NCBI GenBank assembly: GCA_964511215.1
Contig: CAZEER010000002.1
Coordinates: 1-59,494 of the forward strand
From: an uncultured bacterium
Lineage (GTDB): Bacteria; Fidelibacterota; Marinisomatia; Marinisomatales; UBA1611
Direction: 5' to 3'
Length of the DNA: 59,494 nucleotides
Below are positions 13,460-59,494 of the stretch, in pieces (positions within the stretch are counted from its first letter, which is position 1; each line of letters starts with the position of its first letter). Below the pieces are notes generated by a model that was not told the DNA's origin, did no database searches, and was given only the letters and a program-made list of their open reading frames with translations. The position numbers and the translations under genes are program-made.

Positions 13460-13469
13460 AATATAAATT

Positions 13470-14450: not shown

Positions 14451-14452
14451 AA

Positions 14453-34012: not shown

Positions 34013-34036
34013 AATAGATATCATAAAATTTTAAAT

Positions 34037-43505: not shown

Positions 43506-44434
43506 GAAAAGTGTTAATAACTCGTCGGTTACCAAATATAGCAGAAAATATTCTTTCTAATAGCTTCGAGGTTAATCAAATAAAAGAGAATAAGCCGTTG
43601 AATCGTGAAAAATTAATCAGTGCAGTGCAAAAATATGATGCAATTTTGAGTACAGTGACCGAAAAATTTGATAGAACTGTATTATCAAAGAGTAAAAGAC
43701 TAAAGGTTATTTCAAATTATGCAGTTGGTCTAGATAACATTGACCGTGGCTTTGCTCAATCATTAGGTATAACAACATATAATACTCCAGATTCAGTAAC
43801 GAATAGTACTGCTGATCATACTTTGGCTTTATTATTATCATTGATTAGAATGATTCCTGCTGCGATGAAGTATGTGAAAAATGATAAATGGGAAATGTGG
43901 GATCCTGAAATATTTTTAGGAGAAGAATTAACAGGTAAGACATTAGGGATAATTGGTTTTGGTAAAATTGGACAGGCTGTAGCGCGCAGGGCTATAGGGT
44001 TCGGGTTAAAAATAGTTTACAATAATCATTCAATAAAAAATGTAGATCCTGCAATTCAACCATTTGTTAAGTCTTTAAAATTTAATGAAGTACTGCAAAG
44101 TGCAGATTATCTATCCTTGCACTTGCCTTTAACACATAAGACAAAAGAAATAATAAATAAGACAACGATTATGAAAATGAAAAAAAAGCCGATACTCATT
44201 AATATGGCTAGAGGAGACATTGTTAAAACAGATGATTTAGTTGAAGCTTTGAAATCCGGAAAAATTAGAGGCGCTGGACTTGATGTAACTTCTCCGGAAC
44301 CGCTTTCTGGTGATAATCCATTATGTCATCTAAACAATTGCATTGTAGTTCCCCACATAGGGACAGCTACTCAAGAATGCCGTAATAATATGGCGCGGTT
44401 AGCTGCTCAGAATATAATTAACCACTTTTATTAA
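43502..44434 (+). CDS. D-isomer-specific 2-hydroxyacid dehydrogenase (glyoxylate/hydroxypyruvate reductase-like)
   Basis: GKTLGIIGFGKIGQAVARRA, NMARGDIV, LDVTSPEP, PHIGTAT. ATGA overlap. Confidence 0.85.
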   Translation: MRKVLITRRLPNIAENILSNSFEVNQIKENKPLNREKLISAVQKYDAILSTVTEKFDRTVLSKSKRLKVISNYAVGLDNIDRGFAQSLGITTYNTPDSVTNSTADHTLALLLSLIRMIPAAMKYVKNDKWEMWDPEIFLGEELTGKTLGIIGFGKIGQAVARRAIGFGLKIVYNNHSIKNVDPAIQPFVKSLKFNEVLQSADYLSLHLPLTHKTKEIINKTTIMKMKKKPILINMARGDIVKTDDLVEALKSGKIRGAGLDVTSPEPLSGDNPLCHLNNCIVVPHIGTATQECRNNMARLAAQNIINHFY

Positions 44435-44444
44435 GATTAGCATT

Positions 44445-44702
44445 ATGAATGATGAACAGATTATTAAAAAATTGTCTGATATTTTTATTGATACTTTAGA
44501 TGTTACAAAATTTGAATTGAGTATAACAATGGATGAAATCCCTGAATGGGACTCATTGAAACATCTTCAGTTACTTTCATCCATTGAAGAGACTTTTGGA
44601 ATTGAAATACAATTTGAAGATGCATTAGAAATGATTTCAGTGAAATCAATAATGAGTAAAATAAAAAAGTATGTTGCGAAAGGTAAAAGTAATGATTTAT
44701 AA
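44445..44702 (+). CDS. acyl carrier protein
   Basis: 85 aa; phosphopantetheine site context EWDSLKHLQLL. Confidence 0.75.
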   Translation: MNDEQIIKKLSDIFIDTLDVTKFELSITMDEIPEWDSLKHLQLLSSIEETFGIEIQFEDALEMISVKSIMSKIKKYVAKGKSNDL

Positions 44703-46299
44703 AAATTTTTTGCTACCGCATCAGTTGATTAAGAATGATATTAATATACTTTACAAAAATATAGGAGAACTTTATGCTACAAAAGCAAATGAAACGCCAG
44801 ATAAAATATTTCTTATATGCCCAGGAAAACAAAAGGATACATTTTCATATAATAGTTTTAAGAATAAATATCTATTAGTTGCAAAGTATTTAACTCAGTT
44901 AGGGTTAACTAAAGGAAATCGATTCAATCTTATTTTCTCCAATTCACCTGAATTTTTATTATTTTATTTTGCTGGTTTGACCCTTGGTATTACGGTAGTT
45001 CCAATTAATCCAGATATTGCCCCTGAAGAAATGAAATATGTTATTGAGAATAGTCAATCAAAAGCTGTATTCTATCAATCAGAGTTGCATTTTAAAATAG
45101 AACAAATAATGAATAGTATTTCATCTAACGTTATCGTAAAAGCCATGCAACATATACCTGATTTTGAACCTTTAAAATTAAGTGATTTAGATGTTAAGAA
45201 ATTATCTATCCCAGAAATAGAATTAATAGATGAAGCTGTTATTATTTATACATCAGGCACTTCAGGTAATCCTAAAGGTGTGGTTTTATCACATTTAAAC
45301 CTGTTAGCTGATGCAAAAGCGATCTCAGAGTGGTTTCAATTCTCTACGGAGACTCGCACTTTATGCATCCTACCACTTTTTCATAATAATGGGCAAATAA
45401 CAACTTTTCTGGCGCCCCTTTATGCAGGTGGATCAACTGTAATTGTCAAAGGCAAAGCCAGCTTGATATCTTTCTGGGGTTTAGTTGAAAAATATAAAGC
45501 TTCTTGGACAAGTGTAATGGCATCGATCCTTTCTATTTTATTAAGCCTTCCAATAAAGAGAAAAGATAAAACACTTCAAGGTATTCTTTGTGGAGGACAA
45601 AAATTAACAAAAACAGCACAAGAAAAATTCGAAAGTAGGTTTGGAGTACCAATTTTTGAAGGTTATGGGCTTACTGAAACAACATCATTTTCATGCATAA
45701 ATAACTATCCTGAAAAAAAAAGGAAAATTGGTTCGATTGGAAAACCATTGCCAATAAATGAAATGAATATATTAGATAAAAATGGGAAAGAATTAGGGCC
45801 GAATATTGAAGGAGAAATATGCATACGTGGTTACAATGTAGCTTGTGAATACCTTGGTTTAATTGAGAAGAATAAGGAATCCTTTTCTAATGGTTGGTTT
45901 CACAGTGGTGATTATGGCAGGAAAGATGAGGATGGTTATTTTTATTTTCACGGAAGGAAAGATTCTCTAATTATTAAAGGAGGTGAAAATATATATCCCG
46001 CTGAATTGGAGAATGTTATATATAAACATCCCGCTGTTGCCGAGTGTGCAGTAATAGGAGTACCGGATCAATTATTAGGTGAGGATATCTGTGCTTTTGT
46101 TAAGTTTAATGAGAATACACGCGTTTCTAAACAAGAATTAAAAGATTTTTGTAAAGATAAAATAGCTGCTTATAAGCAGGCAAAAAGTATTATTATTATT
46201 GATGAATTAACAGATTTAGATGAAATACCAAAAGGTCCAACTAAAAAAATTCTTTACAGAAAACTTCAAAAATATTATACCAATAAGACTGAAATATAA
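44692..46299 (+). CDS. AMP-dependent acyl-CoA/acyl-ACP synthetase (adenylate-forming ligase)
   Basis: IIYTSGTSGNPKGVVLSH, GYGLTET, GWFHSGDYG, PKGPTKKILYR. The ORF opens at 44671; ATG 44692 (MIYKNF) overlaps the ACP stop by 11 nt and seems more likely. Confidence 0.85.
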   Translation: MIYKNFLLPHQLIKNDINILYKNIGELYATKANETPDKIFLICPGKQKDTFSYNSFKNKYLLVAKYLTQLGLTKGNRFNLIFSNSPEFLLFYFAGLTLGITVVPINPDIAPEEMKYVIENSQSKAVFYQSELHFKIEQIMNSISSNVIVKAMQHIPDFEPLKLSDLDVKKLSIPEIELIDEAVIIYTSGTSGNPKGVVLSHLNLLADAKAISEWFQFSTETRTLCILPLFHNNGQITTFLAPLYAGGSTVIVKGKASLISFWGLVEKYKASWTSVMASILSILLSLPIKRKDKTLQGILCGGQKLTKTAQEKFESRFGVPIFEGYGLTETTSFSCINNYPEKKRKIGSIGKPLPINEMNILDKNGKELGPNIEGEICIRGYNVACEYLGLIEKNKESFSNGWFHSGDYGRKDEDGYFYFHGRKDSLIIKGGENIYPAELENVIYKHPAVAECAVIGVPDQLLGEDICAFVKFNENTRVSKQELKDFCKDKIAAYKQAKSIIIIDELTDLDEIPKGPTKKILYRKLQKYYTNKTEI

Positions 46300-46334
46300 T
46301 TGTCTGAACGAAAAAATATTAAACTAAAAAATAA

Positions 46335-47144
46335 ATGCTGGATGTGAAGAAATCGATTGAAGAAGTATTAAAAAAAATAGGTATAGAAGAAGGTGATATT
46401 GTTCTTATACATTCAGATTCTACGGCAATTAAGAAAATTACTGGTTTACAGTGGGCAAGAGTATTGAATTTAATTAATGATTGTTTTATAAATATGATAG
46501 GGGAGAGTGGAACACTTATAGTACCAACATTTAATTGGGATTTCTGTAAGGGCAAGACTTATTCTCACAAAACAACTCCATCTCAAGTAGGGATGTTTTC
46601 CAATTATGTGCTTTTTAATAAAAATTCCATACGTTCTTTGCATCCAATATATTCATTTGCTGGTATTGGGCCGGCAGCAAAAGATATTTTTTCAAATATT
46701 TCAAAGTCATCTTATGGGAAAAATTCTGTTTTTCATAAACTTCATCAAAAGAATGCGAAAATCATTTCATTTTGTATTGATCCCAATATTATGGGTAGGG
46801 GTTATACAACCACCTTTATACATTATGTTGAGCAAATGAAATCGATTGATTATCGGTTCATAAAGCATTTTAGTGGCACGGTTAATCTGGGTGATATAGA
46901 ATATGATGACATTTTTGATTTATATGTTCGTTTTAAAGATGATCCTGTGGAACTTGACGGGAAGAAGATTCTCCACCAATTGCTAAATACCAGAAAATTA
47001 AAAAGAGAATTTATTGATGATATATATCCCGTAAGTCAGATTAGCTGTAATGACTTATATGATGAGATAATGAAAATGCTTTATGAAGCTCCATATTCAT
47101 TACTTCAAAATCCACCTAAAAAATCTCAAAGGAGTGTGAACTGA
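46335..47144 (+). CDS. AAC(3)-fold (aminoglycoside 3-N-acetyltransferase family) N-acyltransferase
   Basis: GDIVLIHSDSTAI...GESGTLIVPTFNWDF pattern of the Antibiotic_NAT fold; 269 aa. Confidence 0.65.
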   Translation: MLDVKKSIEEVLKKIGIEEGDIVLIHSDSTAIKKITGLQWARVLNLINDCFINMIGESGTLIVPTFNWDFCKGKTYSHKTTPSQVGMFSNYVLFNKNSIRSLHPIYSFAGIGPAAKDIFSNISKSSYGKNSVFHKLHQKNAKIISFCIDPNIMGRGYTTTFIHYVEQMKSIDYRFIKHFSGTVNLGDIEYDDIFDLYVRFKDDPVELDGKKILHQLLNTRKLKREFIDDIYPVSQISCNDLYDEIMKMLYEAPYSLLQNPPKKSQRSVN

Positions 47145-49340: not shown

Positions 49341-50561
49341 GTGAGGGAGACCTTAAAATATATTCAAGATATATTACCAGAATTAAAAATATATTCTGTT
49401 TCTTCTGGAGCTCAAGCTTTTGACTGGACTGTCCCGAATGAGTGGATTATTCATGATGCTTTCATTGCAGATGAGTCCGGTAAAAGAATCGTCGATTATC
49501 AGAAACATAATCTGCACATTTTGGGTTACTCTGAACCGGTGGACAAGTGGCTAACATTGGATAAACTTGACTCACATTTGTTTTCACTTCCGGATCAGCC
49601 CAATGGGATTCCTTATGTAACATCCTATTATGAAAGACGATGGGGGTTTTGCTTGACCCACAATCAACGAAAAACTCTACAACCTGGAAACTACCATGTT
49701 GTGATAAATTCAGATTTGAAACCCGGGATAATGAATTACGGGGAGTTGATACTTCCTGGAGATTCAGTTAAGGAAGTCTTTCTTTCAACCTACATCTGCC
49801 ATCCATCCATGGCCAACAATGAACTTTCCGGGCCTGTTGTAACCACAGCATTGGCGCGGTGGTTATCATCTTTAGAAAGGAGACGTTATACCTACCGAAT
49901 TGTCTTCATACCTGAAACGATTGGATCTATTGTCTACCTGAGCAGAAACCTTGATCATCTGAAACAGCATGTCATTGCCGGTTTCAATATTACCTGTATT
50001 GGAGACGATCGCTGTTATTCCTACCTACCATCGCGGGATGGCAACACGTTCTCAGATAGAGCTGCTTTGCATGTACTAATGCATATTGATCCAGAATTTA
50101 ATCGTTACACCTGGTTGGATCGGGGCAGTGACGAACGCCAGTACTGTGCACCGGGGATAGATCTTCCTATTGCTACAATCATGCGTAGTAAATACGGAGA
50201 GTACCCTGAATACCATACTTCTTTGGATGATTTGAGCCTGGTAACATCATCAGGACTGGAAGGAGGTTTTACAGCGCTGAAGAAAACACTCGAGATCATA
50301 GAGAAAAATGTCTGTCCAAAAACTACAGTATTGGGAGAACCACAGTTGGGTAAACGAGGACTTTACCCAAAGCTTAGCACCAAAACCTCTGGAGAACAAG
50401 TTCGCGCCATGATGAATCTGATTTCTTATTGTGATGGTCAGAATAGCCTTTTGGAAATTGCTGAATTGATCGAAGAACCTTTTTGGGAACTAGCCCCGAT
50501 AGTGGAAAAACTGGTTGATAATGGCCTTTTATCGGTTAATACAACCAAAGGAGAAAGTTGA
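49341..50561 (+). CDS. DUF2172/DUF4910 aminopeptidase-like (M28-fold) protein with a C-terminal winged helix; N-terminus extends upstream of any canonical start
   Basis: FDWTVPNEW, HNLHILGYSEP, CHPSMANNELSGP, and C-terminal GQNSLLEIAELIEEP wHTH. The conserved LFPICRSITGPG is encoded in frame at 49305-49340, before the GTG at 49341. In-frame stop at 49173. Confidence 0.65.
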   Translation: MRETLKYIQDILPELKIYSVSSGAQAFDWTVPNEWIIHDAFIADESGKRIVDYQKHNLHILGYSEPVDKWLTLDKLDSHLFSLPDQPNGIPYVTSYYERRWGFCLTHNQRKTLQPGNYHVVINSDLKPGIMNYGELILPGDSVKEVFLSTYICHPSMANNELSGPVVTTALARWLSSLERRRYTYRIVFIPETIGSIVYLSRNLDHLKQHVIAGFNITCIGDDRCYSYLPSRDGNTFSDRAALHVLMHIDPEFNRYTWLDRGSDERQYCAPGIDLPIATIMRSKYGEYPEYHTSLDDLSLVTSSGLEGGFTALKKTLEIIEKNVCPKTTVLGEPQLGKRGLYPKLSTKTSGEQVRAMMNLISYCDGQNSLLEIAELIEEPFWELAPIVEKLVDNGLLSVNTTKGES

Positions 50562-50715
50562 TACACAGATCCACTGTTACAAAAAAAGAGTCTCTGGTGT
50601 TCTACCGTTTGCATTACGAGAAGATGAAAAAGGGTGATATGTTGATTGCAAAGAACTTGTGCATTGTTCGTCAGGAGCCGCTATTATCACTCATAATTTT
50701 AGGATTACTACAGTT

Positions 50716-51615
50716 TTGAAAATCCTAATTACTGGTTCCAATGGAATGCTCGGAAGTACGCTATGCTATTATTATCATAATAAATATGATATTTTTGCAT
50801 TTCATAGGGATAATGTTTTTTATTCATTAGGAAAAGATTACAGTATTGATTTGACTAATTTTTCTAAAGTAGATCAATACCTTGATCAAATAGAACCGGA
50901 TGTAATTATTCACTGTGCAGGTCTAACAAACGTTGATAAATGTGAAATTAGTCCTAAAGTTTCTTTTGATGTTAATGTCAGAATTACTGAAAACATTGCA
51001 AGAAAATGTTCAAATAAGACACAATTTATTTACATATCAAGTGACCAAGTTTACGGAAACTGTAAAGATAATAAAGAGAAGAATACTAAAATCCAGCCAA
51101 TTAATCAGTATGGGAGATCGAAATTAGCTGGCGAAAAAATTGTTTCAGAGTTATGTGAAAAACATATAATAATTAGAACAAATATCTTTGGTTGGAACTT
51201 TAACCCCAATAAAACTAGCTCGGCAGAATGGATTTATAATTCTCTAAATAACAAGCAAGAGATTACTCTTTACTGTGATTATACTTTTTCTCCAATATAC
51301 ACTTTTAATCTAGCAGCAATAATAATAAAGCTCATAAAAATTAGATTCTATGGTATAATTAATATCGGTTCCCCAAAACCATGTTCAAAATATGAATTTG
51401 GTATTGTTCTTGCTAGGGAATTTGGATTAGATCAATCTTTAATAAAAAAAGGTTTTGTTTCTGAAAATTCTTTTGTTGCACAAAGACCCAAAAACCTTGA
51501 GCTTAACACTGAAAAGCTTTCAGCTTTAAAAATTAGATCTCCTAACTATAATCTTTCAATAAAACATTTTTCCGCAAATAGAAGCGACGGTAAAATTTTA
51601 AAACATGTTAAATAA
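50716..51615 (+). CDS. RmlD-like SDR (dTDP-4-dehydrorhamnose reductase family)
   Basis: TTG 50716 gives LKILITGSNGMLGS. IIHCAGLTNVDKCE, YISSDQVYG, YGRSKLAGE. The ORF opens at GTG 50659, but those 19 aa look non-native. Confidence 0.75.
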   Translation: MKILITGSNGMLGSTLCYYYHNKYDIFAFHRDNVFYSLGKDYSIDLTNFSKVDQYLDQIEPDVIIHCAGLTNVDKCEISPKVSFDVNVRITENIARKCSNKTQFIYISSDQVYGNCKDNKEKNTKIQPINQYGRSKLAGEKIVSELCEKHIIIRTNIFGWNFNPNKTSSAEWIYNSLNNKQEITLYCDYTFSPIYTFNLAAIIIKLIKIRFYGIINIGSPKPCSKYEFGIVLAREFGLDQSLIKKGFVSENSFVAQRPKNLELNTEKLSALKIRSPNYNLSIKHFSANRSDGKILKHVK

Positions 51616-53191
51616 GATTTATAAAAGAGAAAATTTTAAAAATAGGCTTGCTGTACTTCGTGGAGCTAAAATTTTAAAAAATGAGAACAATCCTTTTTAT
51701 GTTGTAGATAGCGTAAGTGCCCTTACTGATATTAATTTGAATATTGATGATAAAATTTTTTCTTCAAACCTAGTTGGATCACATCAATCAATAATTGAAG
51801 TACTACTTAGGCAAATTTTATTAAAAAATTATTCATTATACTGTAATAGAATTATGAGATCCATCGGGAATGGAAAGCCAGTAGTTATTCCAATACCTAA
51901 AGTTTGGCAAAATCATTTTTCTAGAAATGGTTTAGTTTTTAATAAAAATCTTTGTTTGGCATTTCTTTTTTTTATTTCGGTAAAAGATTTATTTAAAGGA
52001 TTGATTCAATCTATACTTTATATAACACCTTTTAATGATTTTGTGAGTATTAAATGCCCTTATGTGATGTTTTTTGATCAAGAAGAAAAAAATTTGCCAA
52101 TTGCAGGAATCAAGAGTAAAAATAATTTAGTTTCCTGGTATAGAAAATCAAAAATTAACAAACCTCATATTAAAAAGTTTTTAATACATGGAAAGTTTAA
52201 TAAAAATTATGTTCCTCCAAATGAATTAATCGTAACTCAGTTTATTTTTCCCAGATTAAGTAGTTTCTACAAATGTTTAGTGTTTTCCTACAAAAATATT
52301 ATTGCTTTTTTAACAGCGATTTTAGGGTTAATAAATGGTAATTGGTGGGCCGGGTTTCTTTATAAAGAGAGTATATTATTGAACTATCTGAGTACTGTAG
52401 AAAAAGATGAATTAGCTGAGGATTATTATTTTTCTAATTCTACGTGGTATTATAAACCTTTATGGACAAATGAGATTGAGAATAAAGGTATCTCAATCAT
52501 TATGTATAATTATTCAATAAATATGGCAAAATTTTGGAGATGGGATAAAGTAGAGCCAGATACATATGGATGTAATACAATGACTTGGAAAAACATAGTA
52601 ACCTGGGATGCCAAACAGAATGAATTCTTTAAAAAATATTGTCCCGAAGCTAAATATTATGTATTGGGTTCAATAGATTTTAAGAATTATGATGTTATTA
52701 AAATTGAAGAAAAAACAAAAAAACGCCTTGTGATTTTTGATGTAACACCATTTAGACCATTATTTTATACTTCTTTGGGGTATGCTATTCCACCATATTA
52801 TAGTGAAAAAATTAATTTAGACTTTTTATCAACATTATTATATGTTTTTGATGATAGTAAATGGGAGATTATTTTTAAGCAAAAGAAAAAATTAATTAGT
52901 CAATGGGTTTCCCCGGGTTTTATTATAAGACAAAAAAAATTAATATCTTCATCTGTTACTGAAGTTGATCAGAATATTTCTGCCAAAGCAATAATTGAAA
53001 ATGCTAATGCTGTAATTAGTATGCCTTTTACATCAACATCATATCAGGCGGCAGAGCTTAATATACCATCTGCTTACTTTGATGTGTCAGGAATGATTCA
53101 GATAAATAATTTTTATGGAATAACTACAATAAAAAATCAAAATGAATTGGTACAATGGAAAGATTGGTTAGATCTAAAGAATAATATTTGA
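51605..53191 (+). CDS. putative polysaccharide-biosynthesis transferase with a PFTS motif (LIC12162-like family as I remember it)
   Basis: The C-terminal region VISMPFTSTSYQAAELNIP contains the literal PFTS motif. 528 aa, GT-B-like C-terminal half. Confidence 0.5.
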   Translation: MLNKIYKRENFKNRLAVLRGAKILKNENNPFYVVDSVSALTDINLNIDDKIFSSNLVGSHQSIIEVLLRQILLKNYSLYCNRIMRSIGNGKPVVIPIPKVWQNHFSRNGLVFNKNLCLAFLFFISVKDLFKGLIQSILYITPFNDFVSIKCPYVMFFDQEEKNLPIAGIKSKNNLVSWYRKSKINKPHIKKFLIHGKFNKNYVPPNELIVTQFIFPRLSSFYKCLVFSYKNIIAFLTAILGLINGNWWAGFLYKESILLNYLSTVEKDELAEDYYFSNSTWYYKPLWTNEIENKGISIIMYNYSINMAKFWRWDKVEPDTYGCNTMTWKNIVTWDAKQNEFFKKYCPEAKYYVLGSIDFKNYDVIKIEEKTKKRLVIFDVTPFRPLFYTSLGYAIPPYYSEKINLDFLSTLLYVFDDSKWEIIFKQKKKLISQWVSPGFIIRQKKLISSSVTEVDQNISAKAIIENANAVISMPFTSTSYQAAELNIPSAYFDVSGMIQINNFYGITTIKNQNELVQWKDWLDLKNNI

Positions 53192-53403
53192 AATAAATAT
53201 TAATTGAATATTAACAAGACATTAATTAATAAATAAAAAATAACAGATTCATACTTAATTTTACAAAACAAACAATATAAATTATAACACCTAACTGTTG
53301 ATTAATGTTGAAAACATATGATTTATTCATTGAAAAAAATGAGAACTATCTAAACCAATAATTTCCATAATTTTTTAACTTTTTCTGAAATCGTAATTAA
53401 TAA

Positions 53404-55011
53404 ATGAAAGTAACTCTATTGGATTGTACACTACGTGATGGTGGCTATTATAATAAATGGGATTTTGATGAAAAGATAGTTAAACATTACCTGAAAGCTA
53501 TGAGTGCATCTTGTGTCGATTTTGTAGAATTAGGGTTTCGTTTCCAATCTAAGAATACCTTTTTCGGGCCCTATGCATACACTACTGATAATTTTATTAA
53601 TAGTTTAGAACTACCACCTGGGCCAAAATATGGTGTTATGATTAATGGTAAAGATTTTATTACCTCGGAGGATAAAAAAAACTCGTTAATCAATAGTAGT
53701 TTTCAAAAAAAGGAAAAATCGCCCATTTCCTTAATTAGAATAGCAATGAATTTTGATTCTGTTCTTACTTCAAGATCCATTGTAGAATGTCTCAAGGATA
53801 AGGGGTATTTAATTGGCTTAAATATGATGCAATCCCATGGTAAGATTCACGAAGAATATGTAAATGTAGCAAAGGCTCTATCATCATGGGATTCTATTGA
53901 TGTTTTATTTTTTGCCGATTCATTGGGTAATATGACCCCTAAGGATATCAAAAATATATGTTTATCAATCAGAGACGGTTGGGATGGTGAATTAGGTATT
54001 CACACTCATAATAATAAAACTTATGCTTTAATTAATTCAATCACTGCAATCGAAAATGGAGTAAGTTGGGTTGATGGGACTATAACAGGGATGGGTCGTG
54101 GTGCAGGTAATGCACCAACAGAGAGTTTGATTTTAGAAATGTCTAATTCAGGCTACCATAATGGTAATGTGAAAAAGATTCAATCAACTATAGAAGATTT
54201 CACAATATTGAAAAATAAATATAAGTGGGGTCCAAATCTCTATTATCATTATTCTGCTAATCATGAAATACATCCTTCATTTGTTCAAACTCTTCTTGAG
54301 GGTAGAAGATATGGTGCAAATCAGATTATGGGTGCACTAGCTTTCCTTGCAGATAAAGATTCATCTTCATTTAGTGCAAATGCATTGCGCAAAGCTATTT
54401 ATGGAAATCACTCACATTATAATGGTGATTGGGATGCAAGTGGATGGTTAAGTGGAGAAACTGTTCTTATAGTAGGGGCGGGTCCCTCAGTGAAAAAATA
54501 CAAAGATTACATTCTGCAATACATTGAAAAACAATCTCCGACTGTTTTTCATCTTAATATAAATCCTCATTTGCCAAGTACAAATGTAAAAGCATCAATT
54601 GTATGTAATGAAACTCGAATTTTGCTTGATGCATCGCGATACAAATATTTAAATCATCCAATCATTATGCCCAAAAAGAGAATAGGCATGTTAATACAAG
54701 ATGAGTTAAAAGAATTAGATATTCTCGATTATGGACTTATTCTAGAATCAGAAGCTTTCAAAATTAAATCAAATTTTTGTATACTGGGTTGGCCATTAGC
54801 TATAGCGTATGCATTATCAATTATCACTATTGGTGAGCCAAAAGCTATCCATCTAGTTGGTTTTGATGGTTATGATGCTGATGATCCTAGACAAAAACAA
54901 ATGAATGATATATTAAAAAAATATAAGAATACAAAAGAGAGTGTTCCGTTATTATCTTTAACACCCACAAATTATAGAATAAAACAAGGCTCTATATTTT
55001 CAGTAATATAA
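53404..55011 (+). CDS. HMGL-like (pyruvate carboxyltransferase/4-hydroxy-2-oxovalerate aldolase-type) domain fused to a C-terminal domain of unknown function (DUF115/Maf-like?)
   Basis: TLLDCTLRDGGY, GIHTHNN, GMGRGAGNAPTE (TIM-barrel aldolase). C-terminal 200 aa carry VLIVGAGPSVKKY and HLVGFDGYD. Confidence 0.7.
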   Translation: MKVTLLDCTLRDGGYYNKWDFDEKIVKHYLKAMSASCVDFVELGFRFQSKNTFFGPYAYTTDNFINSLELPPGPKYGVMINGKDFITSEDKKNSLINSSFQKKEKSPISLIRIAMNFDSVLTSRSIVECLKDKGYLIGLNMMQSHGKIHEEYVNVAKALSSWDSIDVLFFADSLGNMTPKDIKNICLSIRDGWDGELGIHTHNNKTYALINSITAIENGVSWVDGTITGMGRGAGNAPTESLILEMSNSGYHNGNVKKIQSTIEDFTILKNKYKWGPNLYYHYSANHEIHPSFVQTLLEGRRYGANQIMGALAFLADKDSSSFSANALRKAIYGNHSHYNGDWDASGWLSGETVLIVGAGPSVKKYKDYILQYIEKQSPTVFHLNINPHLPSTNVKASIVCNETRILLDASRYKYLNHPIIMPKKRIGMLIQDELKELDILDYGLILESEAFKIKSNFCILGWPLAIAYALSIITIGEPKAIHLVGFDGYDADDPRQKQMNDILKKYKNTKESVPLLSLTPTNYRIKQGSIFSVI

Positions 55012-55015
55012 TTCT

Positions 55016-55753
55016 ATGGATAAATATAAGGATCTAAAACATCTTTGTTTTGATAAAGATGGAGTTTTAATTGATGTCCATGCGTATTGGTCTCATACAA
55101 CTAAAATTAGAGCAGACTTTTTTAAAAATAAATTTCATTTAACAGATCTTCAAACTTCTAAATTGATTGAAGCCATGGGCATTAATACAACAACAGAAAA
55201 GATAAAAAGATCTGGACCGATAGGCTATAAGCCAAGAGAAAAAGTTATAGATTCTCTTAGAAAAAAATTAGAAGAATTTTTGATCAAAACAGATTATCCA
55301 GACATTGTAGAAGATTTTAAAAATATAGATGAATATCAGCAAAGAAAGGGCGATTTTAAGATATTACTTATAGAAGGAGTTAGAGAATTTCTAGAAAAAA
55401 ATAAAAACAAGTTTTCAATGAGTGTTTTTACATCAGATAGGAAAAAGAATGCTGAATTATCTCTAAAAAATTGTGATATCCTTAATTATTTTGATATTGT
55501 TTTAGGTGGAGATGATGTTCAATCATCTAAACCGAACCCCGAGGGTATTTTAATCGCATGCGATAAATTAGATTGTGATACTAGCCATACTGCATATTTA
55601 TCTGATACTTCGAGTGATTTACTTATGGCAAAGCAGGCTAATTTACCTGTCAAAATTGGTCTGCTTACTGGACTTGGTAATAAAAAACAGCTAAAGATGT
55701 ATGGGGATTTAATTTGTGATAATTTAACGGAGCTTAATAATTATTTTTTGTGA
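55016..55753 (+). CDS. HAD-superfamily hydrolase (subfamily IA, phosphatase-like)
   Basis: CFDKDGVLIDV (DxDG), FTSDRK, SSKPNPEG, LSDTSSDL. Confidence 0.8.
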   Translation: MDKYKDLKHLCFDKDGVLIDVHAYWSHTTKIRADFFKNKFHLTDLQTSKLIEAMGINTTTEKIKRSGPIGYKPREKVIDSLRKKLEEFLIKTDYPDIVEDFKNIDEYQQRKGDFKILLIEGVREFLEKNKNKFSMSVFTSDRKKNAELSLKNCDILNYFDIVLGGDDVQSSKPNPEGILIACDKLDCDTSHTAYLSDTSSDLLMAKQANLPVKIGLLTGLGNKKQLKMYGDLICDNLTELNNYFL

Positions 55754-56592
55754 TGGATTTATACAATGCAACAGTAGAAATACATAGAAATAACAAAATA
55801 TCAACTATCTTTAGAGTTTATCCAGATTTTCCGATTAGAAAGTTTATACCAGGTCAATATGGAAGCCTTGGATTAATAAATGATAAAGGAGATAGGTTAA
55901 TTAAAAGAGCGTATTCAATTTCTTCATCCATCATTGATTTATCTACTAATAAACTACAGGATCAGAGGAGAATAAAATATTTAGAGTTTTATATTAATCG
56001 TGTAAAAGAGCACAATAAAAGAGAACAGATTACACCTAAATTATTTAAATTGAAAACTGGAGATAGATTATTTTGTGGGGAAAAAATTATTGGCAATTAT
56101 ATTTACCAGGATCATAAAGAATGGAAAAATATTTTCTTGATTAGCACTCATACAGGCGAGTCTCCAAATAACTCAATTATAAACAAATTATTATTAGATG
56201 GTAAAGATATTAATATCTGTAATTTAAATGTTGGTAAAATTTTTTCATCTATTTATAGTGAGGAGCATAAATTTTTAGAAAAAAAAATAAATAATTATAA
56301 ATTCATACAATACGAGGATAATACTGAAAACTATTTAGAGTTAACTTGCTATATTGAAGGGTTTTTAAATAATGATACTTCGATAACTAAAGCAATTGGT
56401 TTTGAATTTAATAAAGAAAATACTTTGATTATGTTATGTGGGGATCCAAAAATGATTGGTGCCCCAATTAAGAAAGGGAATTGGGAATATGTATATCCGA
56501 GAAATGGCTTAATAAAACTATTGCAGAAGAGCTCTTTAGAATTAACAACAAGATTTAAATTAGGAAGTATAGTGTATGAATCATACTGGTAG
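55750..56592 (+). CDS. ferredoxin/flavodoxin-NADP+ reductase-like flavoprotein (Fpr type)
   Basis: RAYSISS FAD motif, MLCGDPKMI, C-terminal ...VYESYW (aromatic terminal residue as in Fpr). NADP-loop HTGESP is atypical. Confidence 0.65.
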   Translation: MMDLYNATVEIHRNNKISTIFRVYPDFPIRKFIPGQYGSLGLINDKGDRLIKRAYSISSSIIDLSTNKLQDQRRIKYLEFYINRVKEHNKREQITPKLFKLKTGDRLFCGEKIIGNYIYQDHKEWKNIFLISTHTGESPNNSIINKLLLDGKDINICNLNVGKIFSSIYSEEHKFLEKKINNYKFIQYEDNTENYLELTCYIEGFLNNDTSITKAIGFEFNKENTLIMLCGDPKMIGAPIKKGNWEYVYPRNGLIKLLQKSSLELTTRFKLGSIVYESYW

Positions 56593-57595
56593 TAATATGC
56601 AAGATAGGTTTGAACTACAAAAATCAATTATGGAGGATGGTAAGCTTTTTAAATTAATTTGTGGCGCTGGGAATGAGGATGCTGAAGAAGTTTATAAACT
56701 TTGTTTAGTCTATACATTGGCAGGGACTAATGCGATTGACATGTCTGCTAATGTTGAAGTAGTAAGATCTGCAGTGGAGGGGGTAAATGCTGCAGAAGAG
56801 CTTTTAGAAAAATATAATTTAAAAAACTACGTTCGTCCATATTTGACGGTTTCAATTGGGATGCCTGGAGATCACCATGTTAGAAAAGCTAAGATACTAA
56901 ATGATAAATGTACAGAGTGTGACGCGTGTATTCCTGTATGTCCAACGGATGCTATTCCAGATATTTTAAATATAATTGAAAGTAGGTGTATTGGTTGTGG
57001 TGCATGTGGAGTTGCATGTCAAGATGATGCAATTGGCTATAGTCATAAAGAAATAGAAATTGAATCTGTGCTTGAAGACTGTGTTAACTTAGGCGTAGAA
57101 AACATTGAATTGCATGCTTCTGTTATTGATGATAAACCAGTGTTAAATGAATGGAATATTGTAAATAAAATAAATCCTAATGGCTTTAATAGTGTTTGCA
57201 TTGATAGAGGTTATCTCTCTAATCATGCTCTCCAAGTTAGAATAAAGAATATGTTGGAAATCTGCGAAGATCGGATGATCGTTCAAGCAGATGGAATTCC
57301 TATGTCGGGTGGTTCAGATGATTTTAGAACTACACTTCAAGCCGTAGCATGTGCTGATATTGTTGATAAATTTTCCTTACCTGTGCATATACTTTTATCT
57401 GGAGGGACGAACAGTCAGAGTATCAAACTTTCACAAGCATGCAGTGTACCATTTGCAGGTGTCTCAATTGGAACATATGCTAGGCATTTAGTTTATCCAT
57501 TTATTAATAATGCTAATTTTCCTAATCAAGAAATTTTAGATAATGCTGTTGGTGCAGCAAAACAACTAGTTGATACTTGTCTAAATCCGTCATGA
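56576..57595 (+). CDS. 4Fe-4S dicluster protein, LdpA-like architecture
   Basis: LFKLICGAGNED...VYTLAGTNAIDMSAN, CTECDACIPVCP and CIGCGACGVACQ, then VQADGIPMSGG and LLSGGTN, collinear with cyanobacterial LdpA as I recall it. Alternative start at ATG 56597. Confidence 0.6.
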   Translation: MNHTGSNMQDRFELQKSIMEDGKLFKLICGAGNEDAEEVYKLCLVYTLAGTNAIDMSANVEVVRSAVEGVNAAEELLEKYNLKNYVRPYLTVSIGMPGDHHVRKAKILNDKCTECDACIPVCPTDAIPDILNIIESRCIGCGACGVACQDDAIGYSHKEIEIESVLEDCVNLGVENIELHASVIDDKPVLNEWNIVNKINPNGFNSVCIDRGYLSNHALQVRIKNMLEICEDRMIVQADGIPMSGGSDDFRTTLQAVACADIVDKFSLPVHILLSGGTNSQSIKLSQACSVPFAGVSIGTYARHLVYPFINNANFPNQEILDNAVGAAKQLVDTCLNPS

Positions 57596-58356
57596 ATAAG
57601 GGTTTAAGGCAGAAAATAAAAATGAATCAGCCTGTTATTGGGACATGGAATACTATGGACTCGGTACTGTCAACTGAAGTTTTAGCAAGTAGTGGAATTG
57701 ATTTTTTGATTATTGATTTTGAACATGGGCCATTTCAAATTGCCAATGTACACAATTTTATTAATGCATCCTTGCTATATAATTGCTCTCCTATTGTAAG
57801 AGTACCAAAAAACACTCAATGGATGTCGCTTCAAGCGCTTGATCAAGGAGCAAATGGAATCATGATGCCTGGAATAAAAAATAAGCGTAGTGCTAAAAAA
57901 TTTATTGATCAAATAAAATATGCACCCGTTGGAAAAAGAGGATATTCACCTTTCACAAAGTCTGGAGGATTCTCAAACGAAAATTTAAATTATAAAAATG
58001 AAGCAAATGAATTAACCACATCAATTATTATTATAGAAGATATGGATGGGTTAAATAATATTGATGAAATATTAGAAGTTGATGCCCTAGATGTAATTTA
58101 CTTTGGTGCTTATGATTTATCACAAGTTTTAGGCTTTCCTGGTGACGTTTACAATAACAGGTTGCTCGACTTACTTAAGCCTGCTATTGAAAAAGTAACA
58201 AAAATAGGGAAATTTGCTGGAGGTTTTGTACCTCAAAATAAAGATGAATTAATATTTGTAAAAGAGCTAGGTATCAATTTTATTACATATGGAGTAGATA
58301 CTAATATTTTACATAAATCATTAAAAGCAATTAATGATTGGTTTAAATTTAATTAA
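57592..58356 (+). CDS. HpcH/HpaI-family class II (pyruvate) aldolase
   Basis: IGTWNTMDS...GIDFLIIDFEHGP, RVP, GIMMPG, FGAYDLS. ATG 57592 forms an ATGA overlap with the upstream stop. The ORF also opens at TTG 57577. Confidence 0.8.
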   Translation: MNKGLRQKIKMNQPVIGTWNTMDSVLSTEVLASSGIDFLIIDFEHGPFQIANVHNFINASLLYNCSPIVRVPKNTQWMSLQALDQGANGIMMPGIKNKRSAKKFIDQIKYAPVGKRGYSPFTKSGGFSNENLNYKNEANELTTSIIIIEDMDGLNNIDEILEVDALDVIYFGAYDLSQVLGFPGDVYNNRLLDLLKPAIEKVTKIGKFAGGFVPQNKDELIFVKELGINFITYGVDTNILHKSLKAINDWFKFN

Positions 58357-58371
58357 TTTGAATAATTATTA

Positions 58372-59109
58372 TTGAAAGTAGTAGGTCTAATTCCTTCTAG
58401 GTTAAAATCATCGCGATTGCCAGGAAAACCACTTAAAAATATTTGTGGTCTACCAATGATTGTACATGTATATAAAAGATGTCTTTTATCAGAGCTATTA
58501 GATGACGTGTTTGTTGTAACTGATAGTAACCAAATTAAATCTGCTGTTGAGAGTTTTGATGGTGAAGTTATTATGTCATCAAAAGAGCATCAAACAGGGA
58601 CAGATAGGATTGCTGAGGCAGCAAAAAACATTTCAGCCGATATTATTGTTAATATACAAGGGGATGAAGCTTTAGTTGTCCCGAGTCATATTGATAAGGT
58701 AACAAAAGCATTAATTAACGATCCAAAGTTGAATATTGCGATACTTGTTAATACTTTTTATAAGAAAGATTCTCTTTCTGATATAAAAGTAGTATTAAAT
58801 AATAGATCAGAGGTTTTGTATCTATCACGTAGTGATATCCCAAATGATTATCATAATAAAAACCAAGAAATGTTAAAAGCATATCACATTGTTCCTTTCA
58901 GAAAAAAATTCCTCTTAGAGTATACTAAAATGCCAAAAAGTTTTTTAGAATTAATAGAAAATAATGAATATTTGAGAATACTTGAAAATGGATATAACAT
59001 TAAAGCAGTAAAAGTCAATAGTTCTGCCATTAGCGTAGATACGTATGATGATTTGGAAATTGTAAGAAAATTAATGATAGCAGATAAGTATTTCAATTTA
59101 TACTCATAA
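58372..59109 (+). CDS. kdsB: 3-deoxy-manno-octulosonate cytidylyltransferase-like (CMP-ulosonic acid synthetase)
   Basis: IPSRLKSSRLPGKPL..ICGLPMIVHVYKR, HQTGTDRIAEA, IVNIQGDEALV; collinear with KdsB. TTG start. Confidence 0.75.
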   Translation: MKVVGLIPSRLKSSRLPGKPLKNICGLPMIVHVYKRCLLSELLDDVFVVTDSNQIKSAVESFDGEVIMSSKEHQTGTDRIAEAAKNISADIIVNIQGDEALVVPSHIDKVTKALINDPKLNIAILVNTFYKKDSLSDIKVVLNNRSEVLYLSRSDIPNDYHNKNQEMLKAYHIVPFRKKFLLEYTKMPKSFLELIENNEYLRILENGYNIKAVKVNSSAISVDTYDDLEIVRKLMIADKYFNLYS

Positions 59110-59494
59110 AAAAATTAGTTATAGATTCGTTAAATGAAACCAATTGGAATGAAACAAATATATGTTCATTAGTAATTGAACTTGATACTAAAAAATATAT
59201 TGATACTATAAAATAGATAAGATAATTGATCATAATTATTGATATTATTCTGGTTTTAATGATGTTGAAATTGATCGTAATACATTCGAGAAATTTAATT
59301 AAAAGCTAACAGTCATACTTAATATGAAGGTATGAATAAGGATATCAGCTTATTCGCGTTATAATTCTATAATTTTACATATTCTAATTGTAAAAGGAAT
59401 TCAATCTCATGGCAGAAAGTAAATAAGATTATAGAATAACAATCTTTATTTGATATGGTTTTTTTCACATCGTTGACTAATAGAAAGAATTTTT

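What the first reader, a model, noticed from the sequence alone, without database searches (positions are those of the whole stretch)
53404..59109. KdsA-less CMP-ulosonic-acid module built from two pyruvate-aldolase-type enzymes
The last operon segment ends in a clear KdsB-like cytidylyltransferase. It has no KdsA/NeuB-type PEP-condensing synthase, no KdsD-like A5P isomerase and no KdsC-type phosphatase. Instead it carries an HMGL-like TIM-barrel aldolase domain fused to an unknown C-terminal domain, an HpcH/HpaI class II pyruvate aldolase, a HAD-IA phosphatase and a redox pair. HpcH/HpaI and HMGL-type enzymes catalyse reversible pyruvate + aldehyde condensations that give 4-hydroxy-2-keto acids, which is the 3-deoxy-2-ulosonic acid skeleton. 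This is consistent with a pyruvate-dependent (not PEP-dependent) route to a non-standard 3-deoxy-ulosonic acid that the KdsB homolog then CMP-activates. The pathway logic is inferred from gene content only.
Basis: inference. Interest (0 to 1): 0.7.

Follow-up and report, generated by a model that had tools for sequence, protein, structure and literature searches.

The report
Aldolase-based CMP-sugar-acid cassette in capsule locus
Six tightly packed genes in a capsule-building locus look like an uncharacterised way of making and CMP-activating a Kdo-like sugar acid, using a pyruvate aldolase where the textbook PEP-dependent synthase would be; the same core recurs in hundreds of bacteria, including Gram-positives and a plasmid.

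Summary
The order is: an HMGL-like (DRE-TIM) aldolase with an extra C-terminal domain, a HAD-IA phosphatase, an FNR-like reductase, an LdpA-like 2x[4Fe-4S] protein, an HpcH/HpaI aldolase and a KdsB-type cytidylyltransferase. All six lie on one strand with overlapping or near-abutting ends.

New findings:
- In 78 related loci from named genomes, 66 have a CTP_transf_3 cytidylyltransferase next to the aldolase, 52 have a HAD and 51 have both.
- Aldolase::cytidylyltransferase fusions (about 780 aa) and an aldolase::LdpA fusion (892 aa) exist.
- The core trio occurs in Gram-positive Bacillus, once beside a complete canonical kdsB-kdsA-kdsD-kdsC set, and on a Leisingera plasmid. The partner transferase is therefore not housekeeping in those genomes.
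- The "unknown" C-terminal domain is MptE-like, the fold family of Maf and WaaZ.
- HpcH, LdpA and FNR are accessories of one sub-variant.

I read this as a KdsA/NeuB-independent route: pyruvate aldolase, then phosphatase, then CMP activation. The product is unknown and no biochemistry supports it. One close relative of the transferase sits alone in a housekeeping context in Marinimicrobia, so a plain CMP-Kdo role is not excluded. I found no paper describing the cassette.

The parts
53404..55011 (+). Hub enzyme (535 aa). The N-terminal domain is a DRE-TIM metallo-aldolase (about residues 1-315). The C-terminal domain is an MptE-like nucleotide-binding domain (about residues 335-535, nt 54406-55008).
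   Evidence: N-terminal domain:
- PF00682 2.6e-25 and PDB 3dxi 3.6e-51.
- Foldseek top hits are 3dxi and the DmpG-type 4-hydroxy-2-oxovalerate aldolases.
- LDCTLRDGGYY, GxHxH and GMGRGxGN are invariant in 50 relatives and across all cassette variants.

C-terminal domain:
- The AF2 model has pLDDT 91.
- Foldseek top hits are SteA and M. jannaschii HPPK/MptE, probability 0.99-1.0.
- 11 of 16 relatives hit PF01973 weakly.
55016..55753 (+). HAD-IA phosphatase (245 aa)
   Evidence: PF13419 3.9e-25. TIGR01549 scores 44.8 against a cut-off of 23.3. The catalytic DxD motif is at residues 13-15. A HAD gene accompanies the aldolase in 52 of 78 loci.
55750..56592 (+). FNR-like flavoprotein reductase (279-280 aa), probable electron donor to the Fe-S protein
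   Evidence: NF008178 7e-14, below its cut-off. PDB ferredoxin-NADP reductases match at 1.7e-10. Homologs are present in L008 and L011 and absent from other variant-C cassettes.
56576..57595 (+). LdpA-like protein (339 aa) with 2x[4Fe-4S]; probable redox enzyme
   Evidence: PF12617 1.1e-13. NF045992 LdpA matches at 5.5e-46 over nearly the full length, below the equivalog cut-off. There are two CxxCxxCxxxC motifs, flanked by SGG/GxSIG-type barrel motifs. It is fused to the aldolase in an 892-aa protein. Relatives are 80% identical and lie on the same contigs as aldolase relatives.
57592..58356 (+). HpcH/HpaI class II pyruvate aldolase (254 aa from the ATG; the ORF opens at 57577)
   Evidence: PF03328 5.4e-26. 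TIGR02311 HpaI matches at 8e-44, below its cut-off. PDB YfaU and HpaI match at about 1e-31. The DFEH, IVRVP, IIED and GAYD motifs are present.
58372..59109 (+). KdsB/KpsU-type CTP:ulosonate cytidylyltransferase (245 aa)
   Evidence: PF02348 3.4e-47. TIGR00466 scores 158.3 vs 155.2 and NF009905 257.5 vs 255. PDB KpsU 1gq9 matches at 6e-49. R10, K19 and QGDE are conserved. It is 36-38% identical to the aldolase-adjacent and aldolase-fused transferases.
50659..53191 (+). Immediately upstream, possibly associated: an RmlD-like SDR (50659-51615) and a 'PFTS motif' polysaccharide protein (51605-53191)
   Evidence: PF04321 3e-48. TIGR04417 scores 142 against a cut-off of 100. An SDR accompanies the aldolase core in 20 of 78 loci. 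Association here rests on position only.

Best explanation
The six genes form an accessory cassette. It builds a non-standard 3-deoxy-2-ulosonic (Kdo-like) acid and activates it as a CMP-sugar for the capsule/EPS that the surrounding locus assembles.

Proposed steps:
1. The N-terminal DRE-TIM domain of the 535-aa protein holds pyruvate on a divalent metal (D12, H200, H202, R11). It adds the pyruvate enolate to an aldose, probably a phosphorylated one, giving a 4-hydroxy-2-oxo acid phosphate.
2. The HAD-IA phosphatase removes the phosphate. This pulls an otherwise reversible aldol reaction forward.
3. The KdsB-type enzyme joins the anomeric C2-OH to CMP.

This copies the logic of KdsA/KdsC/KdsB and of NANS/NANP/CMAS, with a non-homologous, pyruvate-dependent synthase.

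The aldolase's C-terminal MptE-like domain binds a nucleotide. It is either a CMP-sugar transferase or an end-product sensing site.

The HpcH aldolase and the LdpA-like Fe-S protein, with its FNR-like reductase, are accessories of one sub-variant. They most likely make or reductively tailor the aldehyde acceptor or the product.

Shown: gene content, conserved linkage, fusions, intact catalytic motifs, non-housekeeping settings.
Inferred: every substrate, the product, reaction direction and the roles of the accessories.
For: Linkage:
- Of 78 aldolase loci in named genomes, 66 have a CTP_transf_3 transferase within 5 kb (median 1.6 kb downstream). 52 have a HAD and 51 have both.
- The transferase partner comes from three lineages: 44 KdsB-like group A, 15 PseF/NeuA-like and 5 like ours. 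The aldolase motifs stay invariant. The constant is therefore 'aldolase product needs CMP activation'.

Fusions:
- 19 of the 120 best aldolase relatives carry a C-terminal PF02348 domain.
- An 892-aa aldolase::LdpA fusion sits in a HAD-HpcH-transferase cassette.

Same order elsewhere:
- The aldolase-LdpA-HAD-HpcH-transferase order recurs in Nitrosomonadales, Omnitrophota, Taenariivivens and abundant marine contigs.

Not housekeeping:
- Bacillus coreaensis carries the trio next to a separate kdsB-kdsA-kdsD-kdsC set.
- Rossellomorea carries the trio without a kds set in the stretch examined, about 7 kb upstream and 9 kb downstream of the aldolase.
- In Leisingera the trio is on a 140-kb plasmid.

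Enzyme features:
- Catalytic motifs are intact in all six proteins.
- The window's own nonulosonic-acid pathway already has its synthase and transferase.
- Stand-alone MptE-like proteins sit in the Bacillus (L013) and marine (L089) loci, and one of them resembles the Kdo transferase WaaZ.
Against: - There is no biochemical or genetic datum for any member.
- The aldolase has Tyr where DmpG/BphI have the catalytic His (from my memory of those enzymes), so its chemistry may differ.
- The transferase passes the KdsB equivalog cut-off. It is 64% identical to a Marinimicrobia protein that stands alone beside obg, icd, coaD and dnaJ. Kdo itself may be its substrate.
- Sequence motifs do not separate Kdo-specific from other transferases. 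The Bacillus copy adjacent to kdsA also lacks the proteobacterial motifs.
- HAD enzymes are promiscuous neighbours.
- The host genome cannot be checked for a second kdsB.
Confidence: 0.5

Rival explanations
1. The transferase is simply a capsule-type CMP-Kdo synthetase (KpsU-like, or even the only KdsB). It activates Kdo made by ordinary KdsD/KdsA/KdsC encoded elsewhere. The aldolases, phosphatase and redox pair make something unrelated, such as a side-chain acid or a different sugar.
For: - The best solved relative is E. coli KpsU at 6e-49.
- It passes TIGR00466.
- It is 64% identical to a Marinimicrobia transferase in a housekeeping neighbourhood.
- The window is a Wza/Wzz capsule locus of a Gram-negative organism.
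Against: - Aldolase-transferase adjacency holds in 66 of 78 loci, with three different transferase lineages.
- Aldolase::transferase fusions exist.
- The Bacillus locus has a separate transferase beside kdsA/D/C in addition to the aldolase-linked one.
- The trio is plasmid-borne in Leisingera.
- The same cassette occurs in a Nitrosomonadales genome, which by general knowledge has its own proteobacterial KdsB.
Confidence: 0.2
2. Both aldolases act in series on the carbon skeleton. HpcH makes a first 4-hydroxy-2-oxo acid, which the LdpA/FNR pair reduces or converts to a new aldehyde. The HMGL-like enzyme then adds a second pyruvate to give a longer ulosonic acid.
For: - HpcH has all catalytic motifs.
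- HpcH, LdpA and the transferase travel together, even in a locus without the HMGL-like aldolase.
- The order aldolase-LdpA-HAD-HpcH-transferase is conserved.
Against: - HpcH is absent from most aldolase loci (6 of 78).
- It is absent from L008, which keeps aldolase, HAD, FNR, LdpA and transferase.
- No decarboxylase or dehydratase is present to turn the first product into an aldehyde.
Confidence: 0.2
3. The HMGL-like enzyme adds pyruvate to a nucleotide-linked keto-sugar and so makes a C-branched sugar, as in shewanellose. Its MptE-like domain grips the nucleotide. The transferase and HAD serve another step.
For: - A nucleotide-binding-type domain is fused to the aldolase.
- The family is common in Shewanella, Idiomarina and other marine bacteria.
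- 4,6-dehydratase-type SDRs are frequent neighbours.
- The chemistry of shewanellose is from my memory, not from a tool.
Against: - It leaves the near-universal partnership and fusion with a CMP-ulosonate-type transferase unexplained.
- The trio occurs without nearby NDP-sugar dehydratases in several loci.
Confidence: 0.08
4. The HMGL-like domain is not an aldolase. It is instead a Claisen-type acyl-CoA condensing enzyme or an oxaloacetate decarboxylase, both of which use the same fold.
For: Weaker hits to homocitrate, isopropylmalate and citramalate synthases and to carboxyltransferases. The RDGGY motif matches neither aldolases nor synthases exactly.
Against: The best sequence and fold matches are 3dxi and the DmpG-type aldolases. 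There is no LeuA-dimer or biotin-carrier partner. A malate-type product has no anomeric hydroxyl for a KdsB-type enzyme.
Confidence: 0.05

Closest known systems
Kdo pathway KdsD-KdsA-KdsC-KdsB (and the capsule copy KpsF/KpsU)
   Same: Same logic: make a phosphorylated 3-deoxy-2-ulosonate, dephosphorylate it with a HAD enzyme, then CMP-activate it with a CTP_transf_3 enzyme. The last enzyme is a true homolog (KpsU 6e-49).
   Different: There is no KdsA (DAHP_synth_1), no SIS isomerase and no KdsC (HAD-IIIA). The proposed synthase is a DRE-TIM metallo-aldolase that would use pyruvate, not PEP. The HAD is subfamily IA. The product is unknown.
Sialic/nonulosonic acid routes: NeuB-NeuA, and animal NANS-NANP-CMAS
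   Same: Synthase, then HAD-IA phosphatase (NANP is subfamily IA, from my knowledge), then CMP-synthetase. In 15 of 78 related loci the aldolase's partner is a PseF/NeuA-like transferase.
   Different: The NeuB/NANS fold is absent from the cassette. The window's NeuB belongs to a separate upstream pathway that has its own transferase.
DmpG/BphI 4-hydroxy-2-oxovalerate aldolases, and PDB 3dxi (Bacteroides vulgatus BVU_2661 'putative aldolase')
   Same: Same fold, the DxTLRDG metal/enolate motif and the HxH metal ligands. 3dxi is a member of this very family (32% identity, TM-score normalised to the target 0.89).
   Different: There is no acetaldehyde dehydrogenase partner. Tyr replaces the catalytic His. 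There is an extra MptE-like domain. The setting is polysaccharide loci rather than aromatic catabolism.
HpaI / YfaU / GarL class II pyruvate aldolases
   Same: Full-length homology at about 1e-31 with conserved catalytic residues. These enzymes interconvert pyruvate plus an aldehyde with 2-keto-3-deoxy sugar acids.
   Different: It scores far below every equivalog cut-off and lies in a biosynthetic cassette. It is an optional part of the system.
MptE-like family (PF01973): archaeal HPPK, Maf flagellin nonulosonic-acid transferases, WaaZ Kdo transferase
   Same: The aldolase's C-terminal domain has this fold and the GxGPS and GxDGY motifs. Stand-alone members sit next to the cassette, and one of them hits WaaZ at 1e-9.
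   Different: The match is remote (best Pfam E-value 0.001). Neither Maf nor sialyltransferase structures appeared among the top 50 Foldseek matches listed. The activity is unknown.
LdpA, the cyanobacterial clock-input Fe-S protein
   Same: Near full-length homology (5.5e-46), with both [4Fe-4S] motifs and the LdpA_C domain.
   Different: It is below the equivalog cut-off, in non-cyanobacteria, inside sugar-biosynthesis cassettes, and sometimes fused to the aldolase. This points to an enzymatic rather than a sensory role.

Membership tests
KdsB / CMP-Kdo synthetase (TIGR00466 equivalog) | Whole-protein score above the curated cut-off | tested here: met
   158.3 vs 155.2, which is marginal. NF009905 scores 257.5 vs 255 and NF003952 243.4 vs 193.
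KdsB / CMP-Kdo synthetase (TIGR00466 equivalog) | Nucleotide and Mg-binding residues (R10, K19, QGDE, C-terminal VDT Asp) | tested here: met
   Alignment with KpsU and two other solved KdsBs.
KdsB / CMP-Kdo synthetase (TIGR00466 equivalog) | Substrate is Kdo | not testable with these tools
   The motifs 'H.GIYAYR' and 'LEQLR' of the three proteobacterial KdsB/KpsU sequences aligned are replaced. The same is true of the Bacillus copy beside kdsA, so these motifs do not decide specificity.
Canonical Kdo biosynthesis operon | KdsA (DAHP_synth_1) present | tested here: not met
   No PF00793 hit in the cassette or in the window ORFs of 100 aa or more that I scanned. The rest of the genome is not available.
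Canonical Kdo biosynthesis operon | KdsD (SIS+CBS isomerase) and KdsC (HAD-IIIA) present | tested here: not met
   The only SIS protein (12893-13459) is a short SIS_2 protein without CBS domains, next to an HldE-like gene, probably GmhA-like. The cassette's HAD is subfamily IA.
DRE-TIM metallolyase, aldolase branch (DmpG, TIGR03217) | Fold, DxTLRDG motif and HxH metal ligands | tested here: met
   D12, R11, H200 and H202 are invariant.
DRE-TIM metallolyase, aldolase branch (DmpG, TIGR03217) | Equivalog score and the catalytic His after RDGx | tested here: not met
   95.5 vs 286. The motif is RDGGY, with Tyr15 at the His position (the role of the His is from my knowledge of DmpG/BphI).
HpcH/HpaI class II aldolase (PF03328) | Pfam gathering score and catalytic Arg, Glu and Asp ligands | tested here: met
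   91.7 vs 25. R75, E154 and D180 equivalents are present. The specific equivalogs HpaI, GarL and YfaU are not met.
HAD superfamily, subfamily IA | TIGR01549 score and the DxD nucleophile motif | tested here: met
   44.8 vs 23.3. D13-K-D15.
Ferredoxin-NADP reductase (Fpr) | Curated score cut-offs | tested here: not met
   NF008178 scores 51.6 vs 390 and PF00175 18.6 vs 22. Homology to solved FNRs at 1.7e-10 supports the fold only.
LdpA (NF045992 equivalog) | Equivalog score | tested here: not met
   157.3 vs 450. The domain family PF12617 is met (51.6 vs 22.2), and two [4Fe-4S] motifs are present.
MptE-like (PF01973), for the aldolase C-terminal domain | Pfam gathering score | tested here: not met
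   15.9 vs 34.6 for the window protein. 11 of 16 relatives hit weakly, best at 0.001.
MptE-like (PF01973), for the aldolase C-terminal domain | Fold similarity to solved members | tested here: met
   Foldseek: SteA 3e-4 and M. jannaschii HPPK 3.4e-3, probability 0.99-1.0, TM 0.45-0.54. The profile against PDB sequences finds 8sd5 at 0.049.

The most novel reading that the evidence does not exclude
A third, non-homologous class of ulosonic-acid synthase exists beside the KdsA and NeuB types. It is a pyruvate-dependent DRE-TIM metallo-aldolase fused to a Maf/WaaZ-like nucleotide-binding domain. It works with a HAD phosphatase and interchangeable CMP-transferases, and is spread through marine and soil bacteria, Gram-positives and plasmids. 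In one variant, homologs of the cyanobacterial 'clock' protein LdpA act as Fe-S oxidoreductases that tailor the sugar. That would give the LdpA family its first enzymatic role.
Probability: 0.35. Interest if true: 0.8.

Novelty: new variant of a known kind. Interest (0 to 1): 0.65.

Why it matters
CMP-activated ulosonic acids (Kdo, sialic, pseudaminic and legionaminic acids) cap bacterial surfaces and control phage and immune recognition. To my knowledge, every described biosynthetic route uses a PEP-dependent KdsA- or NeuB-type synthase.

A widespread pyruvate-aldolase route would have several consequences:
- It would add an unrecognised sugar, or family of sugars, to surface glycans.
- It would explain thousands of genes now annotated only as 'aldolase catalytic domain-containing protein' and, probably wrongly, as 'CMP-Kdo synthetase'.
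- It would supply new biocatalysts for keto-deoxy sugars.
- It would give a testable function to non-cyanobacterial LdpA homologs.

It would also warn against using kdsB presence as a marker of LPS in genome surveys. Bacillus and a plasmid both carry such genes.

Tried and rejected
1. Promoter and terminator scans of 53100-59494 gave counts at or below shuffled expectation. They say nothing about operon limits.
2. I tried to infer the transferase's sugar from motifs. Ours and the aldolase-linked group differ from KpsU/KdsB at 'H.GIYAYR', 'LEQLR' and 'GVDT'. I dropped this argument because the Bacillus transferase sitting beside kdsA/kdsD/kdsC also lacks those motifs.
3. I expected the C-terminal domain to match CstII-type sialyltransferases or Maf, from motif memory. 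Neither the Foldseek top 50 nor the profile search recovered them. Only MptE/HPPK and SteA appeared. hhalign against stand-alone MptE-like neighbours gave 70% probability over the GxGPS motif only.
4. The upstream PFTS-motif protein shows no similarity to the LIC12162-family protein that holds the same position in Caldithrix.
5. I ran nine of the ten allowed literature searches. The term sets covered HMGL/DRE-TIM, HpcH, LdpA, cytidylyltransferase, Kdo aldolase, LIC12162 and RefSeq product names. None found a description of the cassette. The library lacks most subscription journals.
6. I read the SugarBase preprint for a link to its unexplained C10 CMP-ulosonic acids in Magnetospirillum. It is suggestive only.
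7. An aldolase tree does not sort by cassette variant. The extras appear to be swapped around a constant hub rather than co-evolving with it.
8. The host's taxon is unresolved. The closest named relatives are Caldithrix and Marinimicrobia.

Full report
**What is there**

The window is a 59.5-kb stretch of an 86-kb metagenome scaffold (ENA ERZ23498662, SUTE22-1 scaffold_233). It has about 30% G+C, and all but a few short overlapping ORFs lie on the + strand.

It is one very large surface-polysaccharide locus:
- a Wza-like exporter and a Wzz-like protein;
- many sugar dehydratases, aminotransferases and methyltransferases;
- a pseudaminic-type nonulosonic-acid set: PseB 34765-35751, PseC 35748-36923, GNATs, a cytidylyltransferase::aminotransferase fusion at 38435-40459, and NeuB at 41164-42210.

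The finding's segment, 53404-59109, holds six genes whose ends overlap by 4-19 nt or lie 4-15 nt apart:
- an HMGL-like aldolase of 535 aa;
- a HAD-IA phosphatase;
- an FNR-like reductase;
- an LdpA-like protein with two [4Fe-4S] motifs;
- an HpcH/HpaI aldolase;
- a KdsB-type cytidylyltransferase.

The transferase narrowly passes the KdsB equivalog cut-off (158.3 vs 155.2). Its best solved relative is the E. coli capsule enzyme KpsU (6e-49).

No KdsA, KdsD or KdsC is in the segment or in the window ORFs I scanned.
- a NeuB-type synthase does exist 12 kb upstream, with its own transferase;
- the gene string continues beyond the window, after a gap of about 490 nt, with radical SAM, AMP-ligase, aldehyde dehydrogenase and other genes;
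- the 'unknown' C-terminal domain can now be named.

**The aldolase**

Residues 1-313 match PDB 3dxi, an uncharacterised Bacteroides vulgatus 'putative aldolase', at 3.6e-51. They match DmpG-type 4-hydroxy-2-oxovalerate aldolases more weakly.

An AlphaFold model (pLDDT 89) gives the same ranking by fold. Fifty relatives keep LDCTLRDGGYY, an HxH pair at 200/202 and GMGRGAGN invariant.

These are the metal and enolate residues of the DRE-TIM family. A Tyr stands where, from my knowledge of DmpG/BphI, the aldolases have a catalytic His.

I modelled the C-terminal 200 residues alone (pLDDT 91). The only confident Foldseek matches are SteA and the Methanocaldococcus HPPK MptE. A profile of the domain finds the same HPPK in PDB sequences (E 0.049). 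Eleven of 16 relatives give weak hits to PF01973 MptE-like.

PF01973, to my knowledge, also contains the Maf flagellin nonulosonic-acid transferases. A stand-alone PF01973 protein from a related Bacillus locus hits the Kdo transferase WaaZ at 1e-9.

In an exhaustive search the domain occurs in about 400 representative clusters at E<=1e-10. Nearly always it is at positions 340-540 of 535-aa proteins.

**Comparative genomics**

The aldolase family is large. More than 7,800 proteins were scored in the first search, and 591 relatives were confirmed in a scan of species-representative genomes.

Among the 120 best hits, 19 are proteins of about 700-810 aa, most near 780, in which the aldolase is fused to a PF02348 cytidylyltransferase. 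The fused transferase is 36% identical to the window's KdsB homolog.

I called ORFs in the 80 retrieved genome loci and clustered them. Seventy-eight had a scorable aldolase. Of those, 66 have a CTP_transf_3 transferase within 5 kb (median 1.6 kb downstream), 52 have a HAD and 51 have both. An SDR is present in 20, and glycosyltransferases follow.

The transferase partner belongs to three lineages:
- 44 are a KdsB-like group that scores 268-294 bits on NF009905 in the four members scanned;
- 15 are PseF/NeuA-like;
- 5 are like the window's.

The aldolase's active-site motifs do not change, and its tree does not sort by cassette type. The constant feature is therefore the aldolase, and what it needs is CMP activation.

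**The window's variant**

The order aldolase-HAD-FNR-LdpA-HpcH-transferase, or aldolase-LdpA-HAD-HpcH-transferase, recurs in several places:
- a Nitrosomonadales MAG, two Omnitrophota and Taenariivivens;
- a very common marine contig family, where a 242-aa MptE-like gene follows;
- a contig with a B12-radical SAM insert;
- a contig where the aldolase and LdpA are one 892-aa protein.

FNR is optional. HpcH is missing in L008. One locus has HpcH-transferase and HpcH-LdpA pairs without the aldolase.

LdpA-like relatives are unusually conserved, at about 80% identity. Many lie on contigs whose lengths match those carrying the closest aldolase relatives.

The LdpA-like protein aligns with cyanobacterial LdpA over nearly its whole length (5.5e-46). 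It has SGG/GxSIG-type motifs that suggest to me a phosphate- or flavin-binding barrel around the ferredoxin insert. That reading is inference.

**Is the transferase housekeeping?**

Three settings say no for the family:
- Bacillus coreaensis and Bacillus sp. ISL-41 are Gram-positive. In B. coreaensis the trio lies a few kb from a separate kdsB-like gene followed by kdsA (DAHP_synth_1), kdsD (SIS+CBS) and kdsC, with three MptE-like genes in the same region. The ISL-41 locus has the same clustered gene order. The aldolase route is thus additional to, and different from, the canonical Kdo route in the same locus.
- Rossellomorea aquimaris has the trio with no kds genes in the stretch examined, about 7 kb upstream and 9 kb downstream of the aldolase.
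- In Leisingera sp. NJS204 the trio lies on a 140-kb plasmid in an EPS locus. It is annotated only as 'aldolase catalytic domain-containing protein', '3-deoxy-manno-octulosonate cytidylyltransferase' and 'HAD family hydrolase'.

One observation points the other way. A transferase 64% identical to the window's, from Candidatus Marinimicrobia, stands alone beside obg, icd, coaD and dnaJ. That is as close as the cassette-borne relatives (62-69%).

So this transferase lineage may include ordinary CMP-Kdo synthetases. The window's host, apparently a Gram-negative of the FCB group, cannot be checked for a second copy.

I tried to settle specificity from motifs and had to abandon it. The Bacillus copy beside kdsA is as divergent from the proteobacterial motifs as the aldolase-linked ones.

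**Most likely mechanism**

The cassette reproduces the logic of KdsA/KdsC/KdsB and of animal NANS/NANP/CMAS with a different first enzyme:
1. A metal-dependent pyruvate aldolase condenses pyruvate with a (probably phosphorylated) aldose.
2. A HAD phosphatase makes the step irreversible.
3. A CTP_transf_3 enzyme forms the CMP-sugar.

The MptE-like domain could be the transferase that uses the CMP-sugar, as stand-alone MptE-like/WaaZ-like neighbours suggest. It could instead be a nucleotide-sensing regulatory domain, like the C-terminal domains of isopropylmalate synthases.

HpcH and LdpA/FNR are accessories that probably provide or reductively tailor the acceptor or product. Every substrate and the product are inferred.

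I put 0.5 on this overall. I put about 0.8 on the narrower claim that aldolase, HAD and transferase act in one pathway that is not housekeeping Kdo synthesis in most carriers.

The main rival (0.2) is a KpsU-like CMP-Kdo supply gene that merely neighbours unrelated enzymes.

**Novelty and limits**

I found no paper describing the cassette in nine searches. RefSeq names are generic. NCBI's NF009905 'KdsB' model scores 268-294 bits on the four aldolase-linked transferases scanned, against 257.5 for the window's own.

The literature library omits most subscription journals, so prior work may exist.

The case rests wholly on synteny, fusions and motifs. I rate it a new variant of a known kind (CMP-ulosonate biosynthesis), of above-average interest.

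Noticed in passing
window 38435-40459 (also L090 10251-12281): A 674-aa fusion of a CTP_transf_3 cytidylyltransferase with a class III aminotransferase sits inside the PseB/PseC/GNAT/NeuB set. The same architecture (676 aa) recurs on a marine contig next to the aldolase cassette.
   Followed up: partly
window 56576-57595; the P0164 contig: Homologs of the cyanobacterial clock-input protein LdpA occur in non-cyanobacterial polysaccharide loci. They are about 80% conserved across metagenomes and are once fused to the aldolase (892 aa). This suggests the LdpA family has an enzymatic redox role.
   Followed up: partly
L013 4187-13095 (Bacillus coreaensis JBOCCY010000006.1): This Gram-positive locus carries an MptE-like gene, then kdsB-like, kdsA, kdsD and kdsC, then two more MptE-like genes (one resembling the Kdo transferase WaaZ), then the aldolase-transferase-HAD trio. 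It implies Kdo-containing polymers in a Bacillus.
   Followed up: partly
L033, L046, L052, L079, L094: B12-binding radical SAM genes lie directly beside the aldolase in SAR11, Magnetospirillum sp. UT-4 and a marine contig. A 2026 preprint (10.64898/2026.04.20.719630) reports unexplained C10 CMP-ulosonic acids in Magnetospirillum gryphiswaldense. A possible link was not tested.
   Followed up: no
window 30653-34720: DUF4956, a CotH-kinase-like protein of 892 aa and a VTC-domain protein sit together in the middle of the polysaccharide locus. Their function here is unknown.
   Followed up: no
window 11376-17367: An HldE-like kinase/nucleotidyltransferase, a short SIS isomerase, an SDR, a 546-aa APH-like kinase and a split transketolase (16094-16858 and 16855-17367) lie in a row. 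This suggests a separate heptose or higher-sugar branch.
   Followed up: no
window 42264-47144: An aminotransferase, a D-2-hydroxyacid dehydrogenase, a small carrier protein (44445-44702, weak PP-binding hit), an AMP-ligase and an N-acetyltransferase-like protein lie together. They are probably an acyl side-chain branch for the nonulosonic acid.
   Followed up: no
L086 8001-8750 (TARA scaffold, Candidatus Marinimicrobia): A transferase 64% identical to the window's stands alone next to obg, icd, coaD and dnaJ. The same lineage is therefore found both in housekeeping-like and in cassette contexts.
   Followed up: partly
L005 2348-4770; L089 1-505: Fe-dependent alcohol dehydrogenase genes lie in two related loci, next to a DegT aminotransferase in the Caldithrix locus (L005). 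From my memory this resembles the KdnB/KdnA pair that makes 8-amino-Kdo in Shewanella.
   Followed up: no
window 49341-50561 (also L063 7888): A DUF4910/DUF2172/HTH_47 protein of 406 aa lies inside the locus. A relative lies next to NeuB in a SAR11 genome. Its function is unknown.
   Followed up: no
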